Both the position numbers and the translations under genes were made by a program. Shown here piece by piece: positions 4,152 through 41,271 of a stretch of DNA of 64,000 nucleotides (the first letter of the stretch is position 1; each line of letters begins with the position of its first letter). Below the pieces are notes generated by a model. It saw only the letters and a program-made list of their open reading frames with translations. It was not told the origin of the DNA and searched no databases. The DNA is from an uncultured Candidatus Saccharibacteria bacterium (GTDB taxonomy: Bacteria > Patescibacteriota > UBA1384 > XYA2-FULL-43-10 > 1-14-0-10-43-13), in contig CAYOQP010000002.1 in NCBI GenBank assembly GCA_964406145.1, positions 13,537 to 77,536 of the forward strand, given 5' to 3'.

Positions 4152-4203
4152 TGGCAGTTCCCTATGGCGTCCATATTGCTATTGGGTTACAAGGAGAAGT
4201 GCT

Positions 4204-4656
4204 TTGCTTAATTGGAAAAAGTTTCGTTATGGCCACTACTATTCTTCCTGTCTCAGTCGGATGATGGCCGCTCTCGAAAATACCGCAGACGAAGCGCGGC
4301 GGATCTTGGCCTTTGTCATTGATCCGACTCTCGTGGAGGTTGTCCCGGAGAGACTGACAGAGCAGTTCGTCGTTGAGATGGTCGAGCTGATGAAGCATGT
4401 GACGCATGATGTTGAGGAAGGGCTCGTCGTTCTCCTCGCTGTCTACATACATGCCAATCCATCGTCTGGCTCACGGCCAGCCATCGTTGAGCGTTTTGAG
4501 AAGATCTGTCTGGATGCGCGTTTCACGGCCGAGATCAGAGCTCTGGCTAATGTGTCAGCGGACCTCAACATCGGGTCGAAGATGCGCAATGTTCGCCCGG
4601 AACATCTGACCTTCGCTCTGCGTTGGCTCACGACAATCATGGAAGAAGGCGATTGA
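4204..4656 (+). CDS. hypothetical protein; GC-rich ORF inserted between rplA and rplJ
   Basis: 150-aa ORF with a TTG start 8 nt after AAGGAG; noticeably higher GC than its neighbours; no recognisable motif. Confidence 0.35.
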   Translation: MLNWKKFRYGHYYSSCLSRMMAALENTADEARRILAFVIDPTLVEVVPERLTEQFVVEMVELMKHVTHDVEEGLVVLLAVYIHANPSSGSRPAIVERFEKICLDARFTAEIRALANVSADLNIGSKMRNVRPEHLTFALRWLTTIMEEGD

Positions 4657-4892
4657 TCGCTACTTCCAACTGCACCGGCCGCGGAGTGACTTAACTCCGC
4701 GGCGTCAGGCATTTCACTATTGACTCACATCTAAATATTTGTTATAAAATAAGAGTTCCATTGACCATGAGGCCCCGGTCACCCTTGCAAAAGGGTGAGG
4801 GGTTAAACTAAAACCTTATGCAGGATAAACATTAGCTCATTTTGAGTTTTTGCCTGCGTAACAGCAGGTTTTTTTAATAAAAAAGGGAAAAA

Positions 4893-7184: not shown

Positions 7185-7241
7185 ATCGCAAGCTCAGCCT
7201 GGGAAAGATCGAATTCAGGCGAGCTAACAAGGAGCGGGAAC

Positions 7242-7871
7242 ATGCGTACTTTGATAATTTTGAGCCTTGTGCTCACGGTGGCGATCCCGATGATCGTCCT
7301 TACCGGTTGCGGCCAGAAGCAACCGGACCGTGCCCTTTTGGCTGCGGTGGACTACTCTGGCTCGGTTGATTCCAAGGAGCGCGCCGACTACGTCGGCAAG
7401 CTCGAGGAGCTGATCGACCGGCAGGATGGCAAGGCAGAGGTAACACTCTACGTCTTCGCCAAGACGCCGGAAAAGGTCTACTCTGGCCGACCTCTTGACT
7501 TCACCGACTGCTGGTTGGTGGATGACGAGACCAAGGCTCGTGAGGCCGACAAGACTCGTGGAACGAGTCTTGCTCCCACGCTGGAACAGTATTGCAGGGA
7601 TGCAGCTGCTACCAGCCTGCCAGTGATTGCCGTTCTGTTCACAGACGGTGATTGCTTCGATGTCCCGCGTACCAAGGCGGCGGCAAAGAAGCTGGCAGAA
7701 ATGTCTAATTTCAAATGTCTGATGGTCGGACCGCTGACGACCGATAGACTCGGACTAGAGAACAGTACCCTTTCGCCCCTGCGCGATAGTGGTAAGCTGG
7801 TCACTTGTGGCCAGCACGACGTCGCCGACGCGTTCAACACGCTCATGGCGAAAGTGGGAGGCTCCAAATGA
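7242..7871 (+). CDS. vWA-like lipoprotein
   Basis: Lipoprotein signal (LTGCGQ); MIDAS-like DYSGSVD; VIAVLFTDGD. About 60% GC. Confidence 0.55.
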   Translation: MRTLIILSLVLTVAIPMIVLTGCGQKQPDRALLAAVDYSGSVDSKERADYVGKLEELIDRQDGKAEVTLYVFAKTPEKVYSGRPLDFTDCWLVDDETKAREADKTRGTSLAPTLEQYCRDAAATSLPVIAVLFTDGDCFDVPRTKAAAKKLAEMSNFKCLMVGPLTTDRLGLENSTLSPLRDSGKLVTCGQHDVADAFNTLMAKVGGSK

Positions 7872-9190
7872 CAAACCAGCGTTACACCGACGTAGACGAT
7901 CTCCTGGCGGCTGAGCCCCAGGACACTACCGGAGCCCCCACGGCTCCCGATATGGATGTCATGACCCTGCTGCAGCCGATCAATCATGATCTGGCTGCAT
8001 ACCAGACCGCCATCGACGCGATGGCCGCTTCCTACCCGGAAGAGGCGGCGCGTCTGACAGTTCTGCTGTCCCAGCTTCGCGAGACGGGCAACCGTTTCGA
8101 GGATGCTCGTGCTAGCGCAGAAACGCTGCGCAACCAGCTCATCGGACAGCGCCAGACTCAGCGCAATACGATCGAGACCGACCTGAAAACGGTCGTCTCT
8201 GCTCTCGTACCATTGCGTCAGGCCCACGATGCCAAAGCGGCCGCCTTCCGCCTGGAAGCCGCCAAGTATGGTGTCAGTTGTGAGCCGTCTGGCCCCGCTT
8301 ATCAGGCCGCCCTGGCCGAAAAAGCAGGAGTCGTTATTCCGGAAGAGATCCCGGCCCTGCCGGAACTCATGCCGGAACTGACCCAGAAGACCAAGTTGAT
8401 GGGGCTGAGCGACATCTTCGCCTCGATCCTGGTTGGCCTCTTCGTCGCTGTCTGTGTGTTGAGCGCTTTCGGGTTCTTGACATATCGCGCGATGAAGACG
8501 GGGCAAATTGACCCGATCGCCTGGGTCCTTTCCCCGTTCGGTCCCCTCGTTGTCTTGCTCGTCGGCATTGCCATCGCCTGGGTGACCAGGAACCTGCTCG
8601 AGCTGGAGATGGAGGATTCGTCCAAATCCCAGCGCAGCATGGCTTATGGCTCTGCCATTGCGATCGGCGCCATCTGGCTGGCGGAGATGTTCTTAGAGGC
8701 CTACGGTCTCTTCCGTCTCTCTCAGGAGAAGGCTGCCATCGCGGCGCGCATGACTGGGCAACCGGTCGAGGCAACTCCGCTTGCGTTCCTCGTCATCCTG
8801 GCGCTGATCGTCACGACACCGTACTTCGTCTATAAGGCTCTCAAGGCCTACAACGATACGATGCCGCGGATCAAAGCCTGGCGTGAGCGCAAAGCGGCCG
8901 AGCGCCAACGGGCCGAAGCTCTGGCACAGCGCGCCAGCGCCTGCCAAGCCATAGAGACGCTATGTCGCACGACCCCGCGCCTGCGGGACATCGGCGGCAT
9001 TGTCGCTCAAGCGGACGCGCTCGCGTCGCAGATTGAGCCCCTCGAGGCCCGCGAAGTACTGCTCCGGGAATCCTTAGAGGACCTGGAGGGGGAGCCCGAA
9101 CTCCCTGCCCTTACCCAACAGACACTGCTGCGCTTGCGCACCGGTGTCGAGACCCTCGAGCACCAGCTCGTGGAACGTCTCACGACTTGA
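7868..9190 (+). CDS. polytopic membrane protein with N- and C-terminal coiled-coil regions
   Basis: ATGA overlap with the upstream stop; GGGAGG RBS; four hydrophobic helices in the middle; high GC. Confidence 0.55.
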   Translation: MTNQRYTDVDDLLAAEPQDTTGAPTAPDMDVMTLLQPINHDLAAYQTAIDAMAASYPEEAARLTVLLSQLRETGNRFEDARASAETLRNQLIGQRQTQRNTIETDLKTVVSALVPLRQAHDAKAAAFRLEAAKYGVSCEPSGPAYQAALAEKAGVVIPEEIPALPELMPELTQKTKLMGLSDIFASILVGLFVAVCVLSAFGFLTYRAMKTGQIDPIAWVLSPFGPLVVLLVGIAIAWVTRNLLELEMEDSSKSQRSMAYGSAIAIGAIWLAEMFLEAYGLFRLSQEKAAIAARMTGQPVEATPLAFLVILALIVTTPYFVYKALKAYNDTMPRIKAWRERKAAERQRAEALAQRASACQAIETLCRTTPRLRDIGGIVAQADALASQIEPLEAREVLLRESLEDLEGEPELPALTQQTLLRLRTGVETLEHQLVERLTT

Positions 9191-9214
9191 TGCCTTTACC
9201 GGCATCCCTATCAC

Positions 9215-9250
9215 GCCCTCGGCCAACCGGCCGAGGGCGTTGTGTATCTA
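9215..9250 (+). terminator. intrinsic terminator
   Basis: GCCCTCGGCC-AACC-GGCCGAGGGC perfect hairpin followed by a T-rich stretch. Confidence 0.7.
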
Positions 9251-9317
9251 TGGGATTTTTTACTTTGCCATATACATATATATGTATGAAGAAATCATAT
9301 ATAAAGTCAAATTGTTA

Positions 9318-9346
9318 TTGACAAAATAAATTTAGCGTGGTACAAT
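9318..9346 (+). promoter_or_regulatory. perfect consensus sigma70 promoter P1 (TTGACA-17-TACAAT)
   Basis: Seen directly in the sequence. Confidence 0.6.
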
Positions 9347-9531
9347 GCAGCGTTCTGAGGGTGAGTGAGTGGAAGACCTCAGGAGGTGCAAGATCGATTA
9401 AATAATTACGCTACATAGCAAAAGTGGCAGTAGAGTACTGGTAATTCGTTGGCTCCCCTCCGCCTTCGAGTTGCCAGTACTTTGCCGCCAGACGTATCAA
9501 CTTTACCCAGCTCAAAACAGACAATACAGTC

Positions 9532-9560
9532 TTGACAAAAACAGAAAAATGTAGTATAAT
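9532..9560 (+). promoter_or_regulatory. perfect consensus sigma70 promoter P2 (TTGACA-17-TATAAT)
   Basis: Seen directly; lies 214 bp downstream of P1. Confidence 0.6.
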
Positions 9561-10005
9561 ACTCTTATGCACGATAGGAAATGAAGTCGTGAGCAACACA
9601 CAAAATAGTAACGAAAAGCATGAATACTGGCGCATATGATCGAGGGTAATTGCACAGAATCAAGTTTACCTAGAATCAGGCGACAGCGTCCTGCATAATT
9701 CAATCCATCGCAAGATGGAATCGTGGGTTCCCCCTCCGCCCGCGAGAGTTATGCAGAACAGTGTCGCTTTATTTGTCTCAAAAGAGACAATATAGGGTCA
9801 CCTGCACATTAACAATATTATAAACTTTCTCAGCAAAGAATTAGCTAATCACACACTATGGCGCTCGTAACGGCGTAATCTGATCTTGCGATCACTCGCG
9901 CCAGAGGAAACGCCAGAATAGCCCTGATCTCGATTGGCAACTTCTTGCTGAGAAAGCACACTCCAGCCCGTCAATATGACGGATCTTGATAGAAGGAGAA
10001 AGACG

Positions 10006-10899
10006 ATGAATAAACTCGTCACCCTCATCACTTTGTCCGTCATCTTAGTTATGACGGCTGGACTCAACGCATTTGCCGTCTCTGACGGCTATGCCTACGG
10101 CACGGCCCCTGCGCCGACCATGACCAACCCGGCCCCTGTGCCGGCTACCAGTTCTTCCACTGCTACTGCGAAGGCAGAAGCCGTGATCAATCAGATGATC
10201 ACGAAGAAGACCGTTGTGGTCCACCGCCATGGTGGCGGGACCGTAGTCAACGTGCCGCGGCAAGCGGCACCCGTAGTGAATAACTACATCGTGCCGCCGG
10301 CACCGCCGGCAAAGGAGAACGATATGAGTGGAGTACTGATGGGCCTAGTGGTCCTCGGCTGCATCGCGGTTATCGGCGTCATCGCTTGGATCATTACTGC
10401 CGTCATTCAAGGCGGTATGATCGCTCGCACAGAGCAAGCCGCCGCCGCCCGTGAGACCGCACAGCAAAACGCCATCCAGGCCAATGCATTAGCGGCCGCC
10501 AATGCCGCTGCCCGTATCCCTGGGTATGAAGCGCTCAATCTGAGCGTCACGCCCACTGGCCTGCACATGAACGTGCGCCCAGCGAATCCCACGCCGGTCA
10601 TCCCCGCCGCTCCGGTCGCGCCGCCCCCAACGCCGATCATCATCATCCCGCCGGCTGCGCCTGCCCCTGCGGCCCCCGCCGCTCCGGCTGGCTACATGCC
10701 AGCGCCGGTCTTCACCGTAGCGCCGATCACCCTCGTCCCAGTCGGGCACGCTCCGGCACCCGCCCCGGGACCCGCACCTGCTCCGGCACCTGCCCCTGCA
10801 CCTCGTCCCGCCCCGGGACCCGCACCTGCTCCGGCACCTGCCCCTGCACCTCGTCCCGCCGGTGGTGGTGCTCGCCGCCCCGCTCGCACAACCCCGTAA
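10006..10899 (+). CDS. signal-peptide/TM protein with Pro/Ala-rich tandem-repeat C-terminus
   Basis: AAGGAG RBS; N-terminal signal peptide; one internal TM; PAPAPGPAPAPAPAPAPRPA repeated twice (48-bp DNA tandem repeat). Confidence 0.5.
   Translation: MNKLVTLITLSVILVMTAGLNAFAVSDGYAYGTAPAPTMTNPAPVPATSSSTATAKAEAVINQMITKKTVVVHRHGGGTVVNVPRQAAPVVNNYIVPPAPPAKENDMSGVLMGLVVLGCIAVIGVIAWIITAVIQGGMIARTEQAAAARETAQQNAIQANALAAANAAARIPGYEALNLSVTPTGLHMNVRPANPTPVIPAAPVAPPPTPIIIIPPAAPAPAAPAAPAGYMPAPVFTVAPITLVPVGHAPAPAPGPAPAPAPAPAPRPAPGPAPAPAPAPAPRPAGGGARRPARTTP
10763..10858 (+). repeat. 2 x 48-bp perfect tandem repeat encoding the Pro/Ala-rich segment
   Basis: ccccgggacccgcacctgctccggcacctgcccctgcacctcgtcccg occurs twice, head to tail. 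Confidence 0.8.
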
Positions 10900-11017
10900 G
10901 GTTTGTGCGGCAGAGATCCTGTCTCTATGCTCGCCCCCGTGGCGTGCTGGAGACAGTCCTCTGCGAATCATTCCAGACATTCACCCAGCGACCTTGAACT
11001 TGAAGGAGGTTTCAACC

Positions 11018-11569
11018 ATGTCCGACACTCCCGCCGGCACCACCGGCAAAGCGCAGATCAAGCTTCCGCAGCTTCCGCCGGCAGTTGAGCCGGAAGATCT
11101 GCGGACTCGCCTGATGGAAGTGGCAGTTGCCACCCCGTCCGGCGAACGCGCCAAGATGATCGATGCTCTCTCGCGGAAAATGGCCGGTGGCAGCAATGCC
11201 GTCGAGCATCTCCTCGAAGTGATCGAAGACACCAGCGCGGCGCGCGAAGAAATCGTCGGCGCCATCGCCATCCTCATCTCCCCCGCGATCTGGGACAAGT
11301 ACACCAATCCCGATCTGCGTGGAGCTGTCGTCTCCTGGCTCGTGTGGCTGGCCACACAGGAGTTCGACTCCGACATCAGCTTGACCGCGCTGGCGGCAGC
11401 CCAAGCCCTCCTCGCCGAGGGACCGCTCCGCAAGGAGCACGCCAACACAGTCAAAACCTGCATTCTGCAGGCGCGACAGATGGATCCGCCGCTCACCTGG
11501 TCCATCGCCGTCTCGTTCGTCTTCGACTTCGTCGCCAGCAATGGTGGCGAGTCGAAAGACAAGCAATAG
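11018..11569 (+). CDS. hypothetical protein (GC-rich island)
   Basis: GGAGG RBS 7 nt before ATG 11018; high GC; no recognisable motif. Confidence 0.4.
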   Translation: MSDTPAGTTGKAQIKLPQLPPAVEPEDLRTRLMEVAVATPSGERAKMIDALSRKMAGGSNAVEHLLEVIEDTSAAREEIVGAIAILISPAIWDKYTNPDLRGAVVSWLVWLATQEFDSDISLTALAAAQALLAEGPLRKEHANTVKTCILQARQMDPPLTWSIAVSFVFDFVASNGGESKDKQ

Positions 11570-11584
11570 TGAGCATCGCCGCGG

Positions 11585-11648
11585 CCCCCACTCTTCCTGA
11601 AAGGGTGGGGGATTCGCATTTTATAAGGACTTTATTAGTCCTTTTTTT
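11585..11648 (+). terminator. double hairpin terminator at the right edge of the GC-rich island
   Basis: CCCCCACTCTT...AAGGGTGGGGG followed by AAGGACT-TTATT-AGTCCTT and a T7 run. Confidence 0.65.
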
Positions 11649-11667
11649 GGTGCCAATTTTGTCTTAT

Positions 11668-11696
11668 TTGCTTTCGAAAAATAATTGTTTTATGAT
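11668..11696 (+). promoter_or_regulatory. sigma70-like promoter (TTGCTT-17-TATGAT)
   Basis: Precedes the 11741 to 25206 cluster. Confidence 0.45.
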
Positions 11697-11740
11697 GTAA
11701 TAAACAATATAATATATCTAAATTATTTTCTGGAGGGATT

Positions 11741-35362: not shown

Positions 35363-35980
35363 TTATTGGTTTTTGACCACAATAGTTTCAAGCGAATTAG
35401 CGGCATCCTCACATCGATCGGTTATTCTCTCTAGAAGCTCATAAATCTCTTTCATTTTGATAATCATGATTGGATCTTTTTCGTTCTCGAATAAATTCTC
35501 CAATGTTTTTCTGTGGTATTCGTCGGCCTGATTTTCAATGAAATTAACAAATTCAGTGTGCTTCAAGACTTCATTTAATCCCTTTTTGTTGCTTAAAGCT
35601 CTGACGCCTTTAGCTATCTCGGAGATTGCTTTTTCGGCCAAATGGGCATATTGAAATATTTCACGCGGAGCAACATCAATCTTGTATATATAGAGTCGGC
35701 TCATAGCCATGTCCATAACATCAACGATGTCATCGAGATGACTGGCCAAAGAAGTGATATCTTCTCGATCAATTGGAGTAATAAAAGTTTGATTTAGCGT
35801 CTTAATAATCTTGTGTGTGATCTCATCCGCTGCATGCTCAATCTTTTTGATTCGGATCGATTGTTTTTTTATATTGTCTTCGGCTTCATAGTCCGAGAAG
35901 ACTTTGACTGCTTTTTGGAGTTCGGCAACCTGTTCTTCAAAAAGTTTAAAGAAATCGATATTTTTCGGGAAAATTTGCAT
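35363..35980 (-). CDS. DUF47/PhoU-like phosphate transport regulator
   Basis: Typical Pit-associated PhoU-like family (TIGR00153-like helical protein); lies next to pit. Confidence 0.75.
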   Translation of the reverse strand: MQIFPKNIDFFKLFEEQVAELQKAVKVFSDYEAEDNIKKQSIRIKKIEHAADEITHKIIKTLNQTFITPIDREDITSLASHLDDIVDVMDMAMSRLYIYKIDVAPREIFQYAHLAEKAISEIAKGVRALSNKKGLNEVLKHTEFVNFIENQADEYHRKTLENLFENEKDPIMIIKMKEIYELLERITDRCEDAANSLETIVVKNQ

Positions 35981-35989
35981 TTTTGCTCC

Positions 35990-36988
35990 TTAATTAAAGA
36001 ATTTAATTGCCCAATAAGTTATAAAAGAAAATGTGCCAGCCAAGGGAATTGTTAAAAGCCAAGCCCAGACAATATTAAATGTTACGCCCCAGCGAACGGC
36101 TGACATTCTTTTTGCTGCACCGACGCCTGAAATTGCACCGGTAATAACATGTGTTGTGCTAACGGGAATTCCTAAGTGAGTGGCAAAAAATATGCTAATA
36201 GCGCTTGCTGTCTCTGCGGCGAAGCCATCGATAGGTCTAAGTTTTGTAATTTTTGAGCCCATAGTTTTGACTATCCTCCAACCTCCAAATAATGTTCCGA
36301 GCGCAATTGCACCATGACAAGACAATACTATCCATAGGGGAATATCGAATGTTTTCATAATTCCGGCCGAAAATAGAAGACTGGCGATAATGCCCATTGT
36401 CTTTTGAGCGTCATTTCCGCCGTGGCCCAAGCTATAAAGGGCGGCAGAAAAGAGTTGTAAAATTTTCGACCATTTGTTGACTTTAGCGAGTGGTTGTTTG
36501 CGAACAAGCCAACTAATTGCTGTTATTAGAATTAATCCCAAGAATAGACCAATAGCTGGTGCTAAAACAATGAAAATTAAGGTTTTGGTCCAACCACTTG
36601 CAATGATTACCCCAAAACCCGCTTTTGCGATTGCTGCTCCAGCGTATCCGCCGATAAGTGCGTGCGAAGAACTAGTTGGTAGGCCCAAATACCAAGTAGT
36701 TAAATTCCAGACTATAGTACCAATTAAACCAGCAAGAATTACGGTTTGATCAACTTGACTGATGTCGATCATGCCTTTGCCGATTGTCTTTGCAACAGCG
36801 GTTCCGAAGACTAAGAAGGCGATAAAATTAAAAAAGGCTGCCCAAATGACAGCTTGTTTTGGAGATAGAACTCTAGTTGAGACTACTGTGGCAATTGAAT
36901 TTGCAGCATCATGGAATCCGTTAGTAAAATCAAAAATAAGAGCAATTAAGATAATAATTATTACAATTGGAAGAATTTCTGATGTCAT
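35990..36988 (-). CDS. pit: inorganic phosphate transporter, PiT family
   Basis: GFHDAANSIATVVSTRVL signature and duplicated PiT TM repeats. Confidence 0.9.
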   Translation of the reverse strand: MTSEILPIVIIIILIALIFDFTNGFHDAANSIATVVSTRVLSPKQAVIWAAFFNFIAFLVFGTAVAKTIGKGMIDISQVDQTVILAGLIGTIVWNLTTWYLGLPTSSSHALIGGYAGAAIAKAGFGVIIASGWTKTLIFIVLAPAIGLFLGLILITAISWLVRKQPLAKVNKWSKILQLFSAALYSLGHGGNDAQKTMGIIASLLFSAGIMKTFDIPLWIVLSCHGAIALGTLFGGWRIVKTMGSKITKLRPIDGFAAETASAISIFFATHLGIPVSTTHVITGAISGVGAAKRMSAVRWGVTFNIVWAWLLTIPLAGTFSFITYWAIKFFN

Positions 36989-37043
36989 CTTCCGTCATAC
37001 TATCAACCCAATCTTATCGTGTCTAGTGGATATCTTCATTCGC

Positions 37044-37070
37044 CAACAAAAAACCGGCTTTCGGCCGGCC
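37044..37070 (-). terminator. terminator/attenuator-like hairpin in the pit 5' leader
   Basis: On the minus strand: GGCCGGCCGAAAGCCGG followed by U6, about 55 nt upstream of the pit start. Confidence 0.4.
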
Positions 37071-37210
37071 AAGCTCCTTCGTGCTTCCTCACACAATGTG
37101 TGAGGAAATCATCAAAGAACTTTGAGAGTATTGATGTCTCCACCAACATCATCAACGATATATATTATAACATACTCATTCGTATAAAGTCAAGAGGGTA
37201 TTATTTGAGC

Positions 37211-37236
37211 AAATAAAAAACATCCGTTAAGGATGT
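37211..37236 (-). terminator. intrinsic terminator (minus strand) at the end of a GC-rich noncoding region
   Basis: On the minus strand: ACAUCC-UUAAC-GGAUGU followed by UUUUUUAUUU. Confidence 0.6.
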
Positions 37237-37800
37237 AGCTCGCTCCAACCCGGGTGGAAGATGTTCCCGGGTTGGAGCCTGCGAGCGCGCCTGTGCGTAG
37301 AGTGCGGTCAGGCGCATTGTGAGGGCTTGCCCCTCTTGATAGCGGTGAAACGCTGACGATCGCCCTAGCATCACGGGCGTGTCACGGTGTGTTGGTTTTT
37401 GACCGCTCGAAAGCGGTCGGTGGTCTGTGTCGTCCACGTTTGAAGCCGTGCACGACTCTCGATGAACCCTGAGGGCTTATCGAGGTTAAGAAGTAGTGGG
37501 GGTGATGTTCCCGCCTAGTGGAGCCTGTTCGGACTCCGACAACGCGGGTGCACATCGACCTCGGTCTTGGTGACTGCTTCCACCAATGTCGTAGCAGGTG
37601 AAGCGGGCGGGCCGCTCACTGCTAAAGCTTGAGTGATCTCTGATTGGATCGAGACGATGGCCCGGATGCTTGGAGCAACGGGAGCCACGGAAACGTATAC
37701 CGAGATCACTTGGGCCGGTGGAGGAGGACTTTGAATGATAAGCATTCACTTTCTCCTACCGAGAGTCTTTGAACACTGTCACACAGCTTGACACTAGCTC
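37237..37800 (-). ncRNA. candidate structured noncoding RNA of unassigned family (GC-rich, ORF-free)
   Basis: About 560 bp of markedly GC-rich DNA in an AT-rich genome. No plausible protein. Many strong hairpins, including a 13-bp perfect stem GCTCCAACCCGGG/CCCGGGTTGGAGC. Bounded by a minus-strand intrinsic terminator. Confidence 0.35.
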
Positions 37801-37879
37801 AGTGCTCAATGCAAAAATGGTAGCAAAAACATGTTTTGCTTGTCAATAATATAGATTGGTATTTGCTAATTAAGCTTCT

Positions 37880-38227
37880 CTATTTTTTGAGTAGGTCGTC
37901 AAGTTTGGCTTGCAATTCTTCGCCCGAACGCATTCCAACCATAGTCTCAATGGCCTTGCCTTCTTGAAAAATAATAAAGGTTGGCACACTCATAACACCA
38001 TATTCGATTGCGATTTCTTTAATCTCGTCTATATCAACTTTAGCAATTTTGACTTTATCGATGTTCTTATATTTTTCAATCATTTCATCAAGAATCGGCC
38101 CCATCATTTGACATGGACCACACCAGACAGCGAAGAAATCAACCAAAACTGGATTTTTTCCGGCTATTAAATTGTCGAATTCTTCTTTTGTGCCAACGTG
38201 AACTATTTTTTCTTTTTTGTCGGTCAT
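37880..38227 (-). CDS. trxA: thioredoxin
   Basis: WCGPC active site. Confidence 0.9.
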   Translation of the reverse strand: MTDKKEKIVHVGTKEEFDNLIAGKNPVLVDFFAVWCGPCQMMGPILDEMIEKYKNIDKVKIAKVDIDEIKEIAIEYGVMSVPTFIIFQEGKAIETMVGMRSGEELQAKLDDLLKK

Positions 38228-38246: not shown

Positions 38247-38699
38247 TTAATTTTTATCTTTGGTTAGTTTTTCGGCTTCTTTTTGAAATTTTGATGCAGA
38301 GCCGAAGCTTTTGTAAACGGATAGGAATCTTAAGTATGCGACGTCATCTATCTCTTTTAGTCTCTCAATGGCAAATTTGCCTATCTGTTTGCTTGAGACG
38401 AATCTAGTTTTTAATTTGGTTACATCGTGCTCGATGGCATCAATAATGGATTCAATCTGCGTACAGGTGACCGGACGTTTTTCTAGGGCGATATGAATGC
38501 CATTGGAAAGTTTTTGGCGTTGGTAATCCTCAGACGTGCCATTGCGCTTAATGACCTTAATGCGTGGTGACTCAACACGTTCATAGGTGGTAAATCGATA
38601 GCGACAACGCAAACATTCGCGGCGGCGCCTGATCAATCTATCATCGTCGCGAGAATCTAAAACTTTGGTGTCAGACTTTTTACATTCAGGACAAAGCAT
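38247..38699 (-). CDS. nrdR: transcriptional repressor NrdR
   Basis: MLCPECKKSDTKVLDSR...CLRCRYRFTTYE zinc ribbon plus ATP-cone. Confidence 0.9.
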   Translation of the reverse strand: MLCPECKKSDTKVLDSRDDDRLIRRRRECLRCRYRFTTYERVESPRIKVIKRNGTSEDYQRQKLSNGIHIALEKRPVTCTQIESIIDAIEHDVTKLKTRFVSSKQIGKFAIERLKEIDDVAYLRFLSVYKSFGSASKFQKEAEKLTKDKN

Positions 38700-38830: not shown

Positions 38831-39988
38831 TTATTTCAATTTTCTACGTATAAAGGCAGGAACTTCGAGCTCATCCTCGTCATCTTCCTCTTCTTGTCGG
38901 GAAAGCTCTGGTTTGACTGGTTCTGGTTCTGGAGCAAAAAAAGCTCGATCGTTGCGGCGAAGAATCTGTGATGAGGGAATTTCAGAGATTGGTGTTTCAG
39001 CCGGAGTATAGAGTTTTTTCTGTGTGCGGCTCTGTTCTGATTCAAAGCCAGTCGCAATTACAGTGATCTTAACTTCTCCTTGCATTGCTTCATCAATGAT
39101 GGCGCCAAAGATAATGTTGGCGTCGGCATCAGCGGCTTCAGTGATAGCCTTAGCTGCTTCGTCAATCTCATACATACCAAGATCTGGACCGCCAGTAATA
39201 TTAAAGAGTATTCCTTTGGCTCCATCGATCGATAGCTCAAGGAGTGGAGAGTCGATAGCGGCACGAGCGGCTTCAATAGCGCGATTGTCACCAGTGCCAT
39301 GGCCGATACCCATCAAGGCACTACCAGCATCAGACATGATAGCTTTCACATCGGCAAAGTCAACATTGATAAGGCCATGATAAATGATAAGATCAGCAAT
39401 ACCTTGGACACCCTGTCTCAAGACATCATCGACGATACCAAAAGCGTCGAAAAGTGAGGTTTTCTTATCAATTACTTGTAAGAGTCTATCATTTGGGATT
39501 GTAATAAGAGTGTCAACACGTTCTTTCATCTCGGAAATACCGAGCTCGGCGATTTTTTTGCGTCTCAGACCTTCAAAAGAAAAAGGTTTAGTCACGACGC
39601 CAACAGTAAGAGCTCCAAGCTCTTTGGCGATATCGGCTACAAATGGCGCCGCACCAGTGCCGGTTCCGCCACCCATGCCACAGGTAACAAAAACCATATC
39701 AGCACCTTTTAGCGCCTCATATACTTCTTCTTTATTTTCTTCAATTGATTTTCTTCCGACTTCTGGATCAGCACCAGCACCAAGACCCCGAGTGGTTTCT
39801 TTGCCTATCTGAATCTTGATGGGCGCCTCATTGAATGCAAGCGCTTGAGAATCAGTATTAATCGCAATAAATTCAATACCCCTCAGTTTTGAATTGATCA
39901 TCCGAGTTATTGCACTCCCTCCAGAGCCGCCGACACCAACAACCTTGATGTTTGCGAAATTGGCGAGGTCTGAATTCTTTTCGATCAT
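38831..39988 (-). CDS. ftsZ: cell division protein FtsZ
   Basis: [30 protein letters not shown]. Confidence 0.9.
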
Positions 39989-40023: not shown

Positions 40024-41271
40024 TTAAGGCAAGATGTGCTTAAAAGCAGACTTAAATTTAGAGACGATATTATTCAGTCCCGGTAAGTCTATACTCAAGG
40101 AATTGCCCGTGGTTGTTCTGTCTTTTCCCCAGATCATCAAACCTATGGTTGTAGAATATATCGGATCTGACAGCTTGTCAATAAGTCCGCTGATCTCAAT
40201 TGCTGGTTTGCCAACTTGAGCAGGTAGCCTCATGGTCTCTTTTGTTAGTTCTACTATGCCTTCGATCTTGGAACCGCCACCGGTAATGATTATGCCGGCC
40301 GGCAAAGAAGTATTACAATTTACTTTGACGAGATTGTCCTGAATGATCAAGAATATCTCGTTAAGTCTAGCTTCAATTATCTCAGCAATGTATTTAAGAT
40401 TGACCTTCTCGGTTTCGTTTTTATCTAATTTTGATAGATCTATTTCTTCTTTTTCGCCGATTCTGTCGGGAAGAGCATAACCGTATTTGAGCTTAATCAT
40501 CTCGGCGAGATCAATGTTAGTCCTAAGGCCGATAGCTATGTCATTGGTTATGTGGGTCGAACCAACTGGTACAACGCCACAAGTTATTAGCTCACCTTCT
40601 TCAAAAACAGCATACGAAGTAGTGTTGGCGCCGATATCAACAAGCATAACGCCGATATCCATCTGGCGACTAGAAAGAAGGACTTTTGATGTGCCGAGTG
40701 GAGAAAAAACCAAATCGGCTATCTCTAATCCTGCTTGTCTGACTGATCGAGTAAGTGACTTTATGGCGTTGGAAGAGGCGGATATGATATTTGCAACAAC
40801 TTCAAGGCGGATGCCGGTCATTCCAACGGGATCTTTGACAACTTCGGTGCCGTCAACAATAAAACTTATCGGAATAACATGGAGAACTTCTCTGTTGGGT
40901 CTGCTTGGTATTGCCTTAGCGGCCTCGACAACACGCATGACATCTTCTTCACTTATTTCTCCGTCTTGACGAGAGACTGCAATAACTCCCCTGCTTTGTT
41001 CGCATTCTATGAATGGTCCGGAAATACCAACAACAGCGTTTTGCAATGGCACTCCAGCCATTCTTTCCGCTTCCTCTAATGATAATGAGATCGCTGAGAC
41101 CGTTTCTTCAATATCGACAATAATACCTTTTCTAATGCCATTGTTCTGGCTTTTGCCAATCCCGATAATATCAATAGCGCCTGCTTCGAATTTGCCAACG
41201 CAAGTGATTACCTTAGTGTTTCCTATGTCTATTCCAACTGATATTTGAGCTTCTCGCACTACACCCTCCAA
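40024..41271 (-). CDS. ftsA: cell division protein FtsA
   Basis: Actin-like ATPase motifs (DIGNTKV..., [11 protein letters not shown]). Confidence 0.85.

What the first reader, a model, noticed from the sequence alone, without database searches (positions are those of the whole stretch)
37237..37800. About 560 bp GC-rich, ORF-free segment between trxA and pit with a minus-strand terminator: candidate large structured RNA
Composition (about 58 to 60% GC) departs strongly from the surrounding DNA and the six-frame ORFs are nonsense. Strong helices include a 13-bp perfect stem at 37243-37279 and GAGTGATCTC/GAGATCACTT at 37631-37711. A repeated segment GATGTTCCCG...GGAGCCTG occurs at 37257-37277 and 37502-37526. 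It ends at a clean minus-strand intrinsic terminator (37211-37236), just upstream of the pit leader. I looked for RNase P (only an AAAGUCC heptamer) and tmRNA hallmarks and could not assign a family. On the plus strand there is a faint tmRNA-like 5' look: GGGGGUGAU at 37496, GGUGCAcAUCGAccUCGG, and AAUGUCGUAGCAGG resembling the resume-codon context. However, no T-arm or CCA end is visible, so I do not call it.
Basis: partly seen in the sequence, partly recalled or inferred. Interest (0 to 1): 0.7.

Follow-up and report, generated by a model that had tools for sequence, protein, structure and literature searches.

The report
New 600-nt structured RNA gene
The GC-rich gap after trxA is a real, self-contained gene for a roughly 600-nucleotide folded non-coding RNA of a family not yet catalogued, kept intact by selection in two lineages of tiny-genome (Patescibacteria-like) lake bacteria, and its function is unknown.

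Summary
Window 37212-37846 (minus strand) is a compact unit: a sigma-70-like promoter, a ~600-nt body at 56-59% GC in a ~40% GC genome, and an intrinsic terminator.

Only one other lineage carries it (ENA contigs L266 and L267, identical to each other, TrxA at least 90% identical), at the same place.
- The two copies are 80% identical, while synonymous sites of the flanking trxA and nrdR are saturated (pS 0.64-0.70).
- In a 150-pair consensus fold, 11 pairs changed on both sides, 11 on one side, and none broke.
- Paired columns differ 3-fold less than unpaired ones.
- G.U-type changes, a conserved UUCG loop, the promoter and the terminator all favour the minus strand.

The 76/77-aa ORF inside shows no protein-level selection (dN/dS 0.86, flat codon GC, no homologues). 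Rfam 15 and ARAGORN find nothing, so it is not RNase P, tmRNA, OLE, ROOL, GOLLD or HEARO.

Seven more distant lineages have trxA followed by a small conserved sRNA, without this element. It is therefore a lineage-specific insertion.

The function is unknown. My inference is a stable trans-acting structured RNA. The covariation rests on only two sequences.

The parts
37817..37846 (-). Sigma-70-like promoter: TTGACA (37846-37841), 18-nt spacer ending in TGC (extended -10), TACCAT (37822-37817). Predicted start near 37811/37810.
   Evidence: Consensus scan gave 10 of 12 matches with TG before the -10. The -35 is identical in L266 and the -10 is TACTAT there. Sequence conservation starts here. No experimental start site is available.
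37212..37811 (-). Predicted ~600-nt non-coding RNA transcript (the whole element).
   Evidence: 80% identical to L266 823-1412, against saturated synonymous sites in the neighbouring genes. The 150-pair consensus fold has 11 compensatory pairs, 11 one-sided changes that keep pairing, and 0 broken pairs.
37769..37809 (-). 5'-terminal 16-bp hairpin (UUGAGCACUG.AGCUAG / ... CAGUGUUCAA). It lies in a ~110-nt block that is almost invariant between the two lineages.
   Evidence: Helix 2 never varies. Only 7 differing columns fall in the first 100 alignment columns, including two end-gap columns.
37557..37767 (-). Multi-branch domain. It is closed by a 9-bp helix (37767-37758 / 37565-37557). It carries four arms: 37757-37722, 37716-37626, 37624-37592 and 37586-37567.
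   Evidence: Helices 3-12. Three pairs show compensatory changes: alignment A3 columns 128/163, 199/221 and 202/216. A-U to G.U changes occur in the 37709-37702 / 37640-37633 helix.
37504..37556 (-). Long irregular hairpin (GAUGU...ACAUC, CCCG/CGGG, apical GGAGUC/GGCUCC).
   Evidence: Helices 13-14, with one compensatory pair (alignment A3 columns 283/296). The apical part is poorly conserved.
37285..37484 (-). String of seven short hairpins separated by C/A-rich linkers: 37484-37458, 37456-37429 (loop GCUUCAAA invariant), 37425-37401 (UUCG tetraloop at 37411-37408), 37383-37355, 37354-37341 (loop UUUCAC invariant), 37335-37321 (loop GCAAG invariant) and 37315-37285.
   Evidence: The UUCG hairpin has three compensatory pairs, and its closing pair U-A becomes the canonical C-G in L266. 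Columns 508/534 change from G-C to A-U.
37242..37278 (-). 13-bp GC-rich hairpin just before the terminator.
   Evidence: Perfect inverted repeat I2. In L266, three pairs changed on both sides and two changed to G.U, and all 13 pairs are kept.
37211..37236 (-). Intrinsic terminator: ACAUCC-UUAAC-GGAUGU followed by UUUUUUAUUU.
   Evidence: Terminator scan. Conserved in L266, with a one-base deletion in the loop. Conservation ends right after it.
37515..37745 (-). 76-aa ORF with an AGGAG-7 nt-AUG context, called as a gene by some pipelines. Judged not to be protein-coding.
   Evidence: The ORF is kept open in L266 as 77 aa. Its dN/dS is 0.86 and pS 0.24, against pS 0.64-0.70 in trxA and nrdR. GC by codon position is flat at 0.61/0.52/0.58. 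There is no homologue apart from itself in 1.84 billion cluster representatives and no Pfam or PHROG family. The AGGAG is paired with CUCCU in the consensus fold.

Best explanation
Window 37212-37846 (minus strand) is a free-standing gene for a ~600-nt structured non-coding RNA of a family not present in Rfam 15.

It is transcribed in the same direction as nrdR-trxA, from its own sigma-70-type promoter, possibly with added read-through from trxA. It ends at an intrinsic terminator.

The RNA folds into a 5'-terminal hairpin, a multi-arm junction domain, one long irregular hairpin and a 3' string of short hairpins. The string ends in a 13-bp GC clamp followed by the terminator.

Selection acts on the nucleotide sequence and the base pairs, not on the embedded ORF. 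The gene is a lineage-specific insertion between trxA and a conserved small-RNA gene. It has since been inherited vertically.

Inferred, not shown: the RNA is stable because both ends are locked in helices, and it acts in trans through its folded shape, as a protein-binding or self-assembling scaffold. The flanking genes are arranged the same way in relatives that lack it, and no partner gene travels with it, which argues against a cis regulator.
For: Shown by tool results:
1. GC 0.535-0.59 against ~0.35-0.43 in the flanks.
2. Promoter-like and terminator-like sites on the minus strand. Both are conserved in the homologue, with conservation bounded by them.
3. A homologue at the same position in L266/L267.
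4. A consensus fold of 150 pairs: 11 changed on both sides, 11 on one side, 0 broken. 100% of cells are paired, against 36-41% when partners are slid by 1-3 columns.
5. Paired columns differ at 10.7%. Unpaired columns differ at 29.6% and carry all 31 gap columns.
6. Overall identity is 80%, while synonymous sites of trxA and nrdR between the same two genomes differ at 64-70%, with dN/dS of 0.03 and 0.002.
7. Strand evidence:
   - One-sided changes in window helices give G.U on the minus strand 15 times and A.C 5 times.
   - The UUCG tetraloop is conserved and becomes C(UUCG)G.
   - The minus-strand minimum-energy and centroid folds nearly coincide (-253.9 and -251.9). The plus-strand ones do not (-272.7 and -228.5).
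8. Fold z-scores of -9.3 and -10.9, and ranks 2 and 4 of 852 windows.
9. Identical copies in four independent assemblies, so it is not an assembly artefact.
Against: - Only two distinct sequences exist, so covariation is counted on one pairwise comparison. RNAalifold chose the structure it was scored on. It also finds a comparably scored alternative fold for the plus strand.
- The transcribed strand is C-rich (C 0.31, G 0.25), which is unusual for structured RNAs.
- The window's own predicted fold has very few G.U pairs (5 of 165), so most helices exist on both strands.
- There are no expression data.
- The promoter call is a consensus match. Such matches occur at chance level in this region (4 found, 2.7 expected).
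- An SD-AUG ORF stays open in both lineages.
- The function is pure inference.
Confidence: 0.8

Rival explanations
1. It is a long structured 3' UTR of the nrdR-trxA mRNA, acting in cis on stability or termination, rather than an independent RNA gene.
For: No convincing terminator lies between the trxA stop (37880) and the element. There is only a weak A/U hairpin inside the putative promoter spacer. The orientation is the same as trxA. The Logan contig L003 runs from nrdR through trxA and stops exactly at the foot of the terminator, 37220, but the run type is unknown.
Against: The -35/-10 pair is conserved in L266, while the 30 nt between the trxA stop and the -35 are less conserved. Relatives express trxA without it. 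600 nt of near-complete constraint is far more than a 3'-end stabiliser needs.
Confidence: 0.08
2. It is an mRNA, or a dual-function RNA, for the 76/77-aa protein starting at 37745.
For: There is an AGGAG-7 nt-AUG context. The ORF is open in both lineages and the frame is kept across a 3-nt indel and a -1/+1 pair. Gene callers predict it.
Against: - dN/dS is 0.86, and 'synonymous' sites are as conserved as the rest (pS 0.24 against 0.64-0.70 in real genes).
- Amino-acid identity is about 65% at ~80% nucleotide identity, about what unconstrained change would give.
- GC1/2/3 is flat, unlike the GC-rich genes elsewhere in the window.
- There is no homologue apart from itself and one spurious low-complexity hit and no Pfam or PHROG family.
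- The ORF covers only 231 of ~600 constrained nucleotides.
- Other frames also carry 53-123-aa ORFs in L266.
Confidence: 0.05
3. The functional RNA is encoded on the plus strand.
For: The plus strand is G- and U-rich, as most structured RNAs are. Several hairpins are longer on the plus strand through G.U pairs. RNAalifold gives 161 pairs and 12 compensatory pairs on the plus strand. One hairpin (37484-37458) has a U-A to C.A change on the minus strand that would be U.G on the plus strand.
Against: No plus-strand promoter or terminator was found by the scan. One-sided changes favour the minus strand 15 to 5. UUCG would read CGAA on the plus strand. The plus-strand ensemble is ill-defined, with the centroid 44 kcal/mol above the minimum-energy fold. 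The conserved block is bounded by minus-strand signals.
Confidence: 0.04
4. It is non-functional foreign DNA: a decayed GC-rich gene fragment or a miniature mobile element (MITE-like palindromic repeat).
For: It is an insertion relative to seven more distant lineages. The window holds other GC-rich islands that look acquired. Most helices are perfect Watson-Crick palindromes.
Against: - Divergence is 3-fold below the synonymous rate, and the changes are pair-preserving.
- It is single-copy in 64 kb.
- There are no terminal inverted repeats beyond a 7-bp match and no target duplication.
- No protein homology was found for the four minus-strand ORFs tested.
- There is no match in phage, plasmid or viral collections.
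Confidence: 0.03

Closest known systems
OLE, ROOL and GOLLD RNAs (large 'ornate' bacterial ncRNAs; Rfam families; cryo-EM homo-oligomers described in PMC12286853)
   Same: - Size class, within the range of large bacterial ncRNAs by my recollection of their lengths.
- Many conserved helices.
- A stand-alone gene.
- GC-rich relative to an AT-rich genome.
- Patchy, accessory distribution.
- Function not deducible from the neighbours.
   Different: - No covariance-model match, even at E<=10, for either copy.
- No associated protein genes, whereas OLE has OAP partner proteins (PMC3413148); my recollection is that their genes lie next to it.
- No prophage or tRNA context of the kind I recall for ROOL and GOLLD.
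- Known in only two lineages.
- Host is a Patescibacteria-like bacterium.
RNase P RNA and tmRNA
   Same: A GC-rich, several-hundred-nucleotide structured RNA in an AT-rich genome, with its own promoter and terminator.
   Different: - No Rfam or ARAGORN match.
- The AAAGUCC heptamer is not conserved (CCAAUCC in L266).
- There is no T-arm or CCA end.
- The gene is missing at this locus in close relatives. That fits an accessory RNA, not an essential one.
GC-rich intergenic-region candidates from the Breaker-laboratory GC-IGR pipeline (PMC11109978, PMC8632094)
   Same: It was detected by the same signature: a long intergenic region whose GC content stands far above the genome's. It falls among the rare large ncRNAs of undetermined function.
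   Different: It is not among the Rfam-deposited motifs. The 50-genome paper does not mention Patescibacteria, Saccharibacteria or candidate phyla.

Membership tests
Structured non-coding RNA gene (generic) | Base pairs maintained by compensatory and wobble-compatible substitutions between homologues | tested here: met
   150 pairs: 11 changed on both sides, 11 on one side, 0 broken. 100% of cells are paired, against 36-41% for slid controls. Only two distinct sequences, and the structure was chosen by RNAalifold.
Structured non-coding RNA gene (generic) | Sequence constraint above the neutral expectation without a codon pattern | tested here: met
   80% identity against pS 0.64-0.70 in trxA and nrdR. 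The ORF's dN/dS is 0.86. Paired columns differ at 10.7% and unpaired at 29.6%.
Structured non-coding RNA gene (generic) | Own transcription signals and an expressed transcript | tested here: inconclusive
   Promoter-like and terminator-like sites are present and conserved. No RNA-seq data could be examined.
RNase P RNA (bacterial type A/B) | Match to the Rfam covariance models, including the conserved P4 / GGAAAGUCC core | tested here: not met
   No hit at gathering score or at E<=10 in either copy. The heptamer AAAGUCC is replaced by CCAAUCC in L266.
tmRNA | tRNA-like domain (T-arm, acceptor, CCA) plus a tag reading frame | tested here: not met
   ARAGORN finds no tmRNA on either strand of the window. 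Rfam finds none.
OLE / ROOL / GOLLD / HEARO (IscB omega RNA) | Match to the family covariance model | tested here: not met
   cmscan of all 4227 Rfam 15 models over 36900-38000 and over L266 760-1432 at E<=10 lists only miRNA, snoRNA and sRNA noise.
OLE / ROOL / GOLLD / HEARO (IscB omega RNA) | Characteristic gene neighbourhood (OLE-associated protein genes for OLE; prophage or tRNA context for ROOL and GOLLD; iscB for HEARO), as I recall it for these families | tested here: not met
   The neighbours are ftsA, ftsZ, nrdR, trxA, a small RNA, pit, phoU-like and an addB/uvrD-like helicase.
Group I / group II intron | Catalytic-core covariance-model match (for example domain V), and insertion within a host gene | tested here: not met
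   No Rfam hit. The element is intergenic with its own promoter and terminator.
Protein-coding gene or pseudogene | Protein homologues, codon-position composition, dN/dS below 1 | tested here: not met
   No homologues beyond itself. No Pfam or PHROG family. Flat GC1/2/3. dN/dS 0.86.
MITE / REP-like mobile repeat | Multiple dispersed copies, terminal inverted repeats, target-site duplication | tested here: not met
   Single copy in the 64-kb window. Only a 7-bp terminal complementarity and no duplication at the junctions. The rest of the genome could not be searched.

The most novel reading that the evidence does not exclude
This is the founding member of a new class of large, highly ordered RNAs in Patescibacteria. 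It would be a self-contained RNA gene cassette, gained by one lineage and kept under strong selection. Its invariant 5' domain and hairpin loops would build a specific three-dimensional machine: a self-assembling RNA particle, a ribozyme, or the RNA core of an unknown ribonucleoprotein. That would be a function with no counterpart among catalogued RNA families.
Probability: 0.35. Interest if true: 0.8.

Novelty: new member of a known kind. Interest (0 to 1): 0.62.

Why it matters
Bacterial non-coding RNAs longer than about 500 nt with dense conserved structure are rare. As far as I know, the known ones (rRNAs, group II introns, OLE, GOLLD, ROOL, HEARO) have each turned out to be catalysts, guides or unusual assemblies.

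Patescibacteria have very small, streamlined genomes as far as I know. Keeping 600 nt of non-coding sequence nearly unchanged, while synonymous sites saturate, implies a real fitness contribution.

The element is bounded by a promoter and a terminator and is only 600 nt long. It is therefore directly testable by in-vitro transcription, chemical probing and cryo-EM.

The work also shows that the trxA-downstream spot in this clade hosts a deeply conserved small RNA plus variable RNA-like inserts.

Tried and rejected
1. Genome-collection scan with the Pit protein. It returned only distant, horizontally related pit loci, none with the element. This spent the single genome-contig scan.

2. Metagenome scan with the internal repeat motif CAGGCTCC..CGGGAACATC (viral version). 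The later homologue shows the motif is not conserved, so the pattern was a poor choice.

3. The 76-aa and 77-aa ORFs as bait for spurious gene calls on homologous elements. Each found only itself. The word-indexed search did not connect the two known ORFs to each other, so its negatives are weak. The exhaustive HMMER search is the stronger negative.

4. blastn against phage and plasmid collections, and four exact conserved blocks against viral contigs. Nothing was found.

5. Homology between the element and other promoter-bearing GC-richer units in relatives: L264 after trxA, L137 between ftsZ and nrdR, and L259 downstream of the sRNA. Local alignment scored no better than shuffles. A covariance model of the 3' domain hit only the two known lineages.

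6. RNase P, tmRNA and other Rfam families. Rejected.

7. Long-range or pseudoknot pairings supported by both sequences. Candidates exist, for example 10 bp between the 5' hairpin apex and the GCUU-loop hairpin. They cannot be judged with two sequences.

Full report
**What is there.** All genes in this part of the window lie on the minus strand. They run ftsA (40024-41271), ftsZ (38831-39988), nrdR (38247-38699), trxA (37880-38227), then the element, then pit (35990-36988), a phoU-like gene and an addB/uvrD-like helicase.
- Between the trxA stop and about 37200, the GC content rises from 0.35-0.43 to 0.535-0.59.
- Identical copies occur in a JGI co-assembly of Lake Mendota and in three independent Logan assemblies. 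The sequence is therefore not an assembly artefact.
- TrxA relatives carry Patescibacteria and Parcubacteria labels, so the organism is probably a member of that radiation.

**Transcription unit.** A sigma-70-like promoter lies on the minus strand: TTGACA, an 18-nt spacer ending in TG-n, then TACCAT (37846-37817). An intrinsic terminator follows at 37236-37220 with a U-run. Together they bracket about 600 nt. A consensus promoter match alone is weak evidence here, since 4 were found and 2.7 expected.

**A second copy.** The 90%-identity cluster of TrxA held one other member. Its two ENA contigs are identical to each other (L266 and L267). They carry a homologous element directly after trxA.
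- Conservation begins at the -35 box, and the -10 reads TACTAT there.
- It continues through the whole body and stops right after the terminator. The sequence then diverges until the next promoter.
- This turns the promoter and terminator calls into a conserved, bounded unit.

**Selection.** Between these two genomes, synonymous sites of trxA and nrdR are saturated. pS is 0.64 and 0.70, and dN/dS is 0.03 and 0.002.
- The element is 80% identical over 580 aligned columns. That is about three-fold less change than at silent sites.
- The first ~110 nt are almost invariant.
- Columns paired in the consensus fold differ at 10.7%. Unpaired columns differ at 29.6% and hold all 31 gap columns.

**Structure.** RNAalifold on the minus strand gives 150 pairs in about 25 helices. 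Eleven pairs changed on both sides, 11 changed on one side, and none is broken.
- On that structure 100% of cells are standard pairs. This falls to 36-41% when the 3' partners are slid by 1-3 columns, and 0 of 500 column shuffles reach the observed values.
- The 13-bp hairpin before the terminator changed three pairs on both sides and two to G.U, and kept all 13 pairs.
- The UUCG hairpin swaps C-G for U-A twice. Its loop-closing U-A becomes C-G.
- GCGCC/GGCGC becomes GCACC/GGUGC.
- Architecture: a 5' hairpin (37809-37769); a junction domain closed by 37767-37758 / 37565-37557 with four arms; a long irregular hairpin (37556-37504); then seven short hairpins, a 13-bp clamp and the terminator.
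- Caveat: there are only two sequences, and the structure was optimised on them. This is strong pairwise evidence, not a statistical covariation test.

**Strand.** RNAalifold can also build a fold of similar score on the plus strand, and the plus strand is the G/U-rich one. The following points favour the minus strand, and I put it at about 0.9.
- In helices predicted from the window sequence alone, one-sided substitutions give G.U on the minus strand 15 times and A.C 5 times. The one-sided binomial is about 0.02, and some of the five are alignment slips.
- The UUCG tetraloop reads correctly only on the minus strand.
- The conserved block is bounded by minus-strand signals.
- The minus-strand ensemble is well defined, with the minimum-energy fold at -253.9 and the centroid at -251.9 kcal/mol. 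The plus-strand values are -272.7 and -228.5.

**Not a protein gene.** A 76-aa ORF with a good AGGAG-7 nt-AUG context (37745-37515) is called by some pipelines. It stays open in L266 as 77 aa. The evidence against coding is as follows.
- Its dN/dS is 0.86, and its synonymous sites are as conserved as everything else.
- Its GC by codon position is flat. The GC-rich ORFs elsewhere in the window show the usual GC3 > GC2 pattern.
- An exhaustive HMMER search of 1.84 billion cluster representatives finds only itself and one weak, spurious hit.
- Pfam and PHROGs find nothing credible.
- Other frames carry ORFs of 53-123 aa in L266.
- The AGGAG is paired with CUCCU in the fold.
- A dual function cannot be excluded.

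**Not a known RNA.** Rfam 15 gives no match at gathering score anywhere in the 64 kb. At E<=10 it gives only unrelated, inconsistent noise in either copy. ARAGORN finds no tRNA or tmRNA.

**Distribution.** Seven more distant lineages were examined, with TrxA 83% to 65% identical (L135, L136, L269, L264, L262, L137/138, L259-261).
- They have trxA followed by a small conserved RNA unit, directly or after unrelated spacers.
- None has the element, by blastn, local alignment or a covariance model of its 3' domain.
- The most parsimonious history is a single insertion of a ready-made cassette (promoter, RNA, terminator) in the common ancestor of the two carrier lineages. Vertical retention followed, over a period long enough to saturate silent sites.
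- Whether non-carriers hold a copy elsewhere could not be tested.

**How it probably works.**
- *Shown:* a conserved, bounded, structurally constrained minus-strand unit.
- *Inferred from anatomy:* both ends are buried in helices. A hairpin starts about 4 nt from the predicted start, and a 13-bp GC clamp plus the terminator closes the 3' end. By general knowledge of bacterial RNA decay, this protects against 5'-end-dependent and 3'-exonucleolytic attack.
- *Inferred from conservation:* the invariant 5' block and the invariant loops (GCUUCAAA, UUUCAC, GCAAG, UUCG) are the likeliest tertiary or ligand contacts.
- *Inferred from context:* the flanking genes are arranged identically with or without it, and no protein gene co-occurs with it. 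I therefore favour a trans-acting folded RNA (scaffold or self-assembling particle) over a cis regulator. That functional step is a guess, at about 50% given that the RNA is real.

**Rivals.** The rivals considered are a trxA 3' UTR, a small-protein mRNA, a plus-strand RNA, and inert foreign DNA or a MITE. Each is listed with its evidence in the rival-explanations section, and together they take about 0.2.

**Novelty and interest.** This is a new family within a known kind, the large GC-rich structured bacterial ncRNAs of unknown function. Specialists would find a ~600-nt accessory RNA under this much constraint in a reduced genome noteworthy. The narrow distribution (two lineages) and the absence of expression or functional data limit the claim. 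Interest 0.62.

Noticed in passing
- It has a promoter TTGACT-18-TATAAT (37193-37164), a ~110-nt RNA with the invariant core CAAAGYUCUUUGAUGA, and a terminator (37070-37052).
- It follows trxA in every relative fetched, whatever gene comes next.
- RNAalifold on six sequences gives 31 pairs, 16 of them with compensatory changes.
- It has no Rfam family.
   Followed up: partly
window 4200-4800, 7200-9300, 9900-11700: Three further GC-rich islands (0.52-0.72 GC) lie in a ~0.40 GC genome.
- They carry ORFs of 150, 209, 461, 307 and 235 aa with coding-type GC3 > GC2.
- One lies between rplA and rplJ.
- Only weak vWA-like and PHROG hits were found.
- They are probably acquired DNA.
   Followed up: partly
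window 9190-9976: An ORF-free stretch lies between two of the GC islands.
- It has two sigma-70-like promoters, read by eye: TTGACA...TACAAT near 9319-9347 and TTGACA...TATAAT near 9533-9561.
- It has strongly folding 150-nt windows, with z = -5.7 to -8.2.
- It has no Rfam hit.
- It may hold further unannotated RNAs.
   Followed up: partly
L264 1600-1800; L137 3935-4395 (and L138); L259 7620-8240: Relatives carry other promoter-bearing, GC-richer, ORF-poor units in the ftsZ-nrdR-trxA-helicase neighbourhood. None is detectably homologous to the element. The locus looks like a hot spot for RNA-like inserts.
   Followed up: partly
window 35363-36988: The pit and phoU-like pair is absent from this locus in relatives. 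There the small RNA is followed by the addB/uvrD-like helicase. The best Pit matches are Chloroflexota and Dehalococcoidales at 70-74%. This suggests horizontal acquisition.
   Followed up: no
L003 (Logan SRR12261226), last base = window 37220: This 1266-nt contig spans the 3' end of nrdR, trxA and the element. It ends exactly at the 3' foot of the terminator hairpin. If the run were RNA-derived, this would mark a transcript end and read-through from trxA. The run type is unknown.
   Followed up: no
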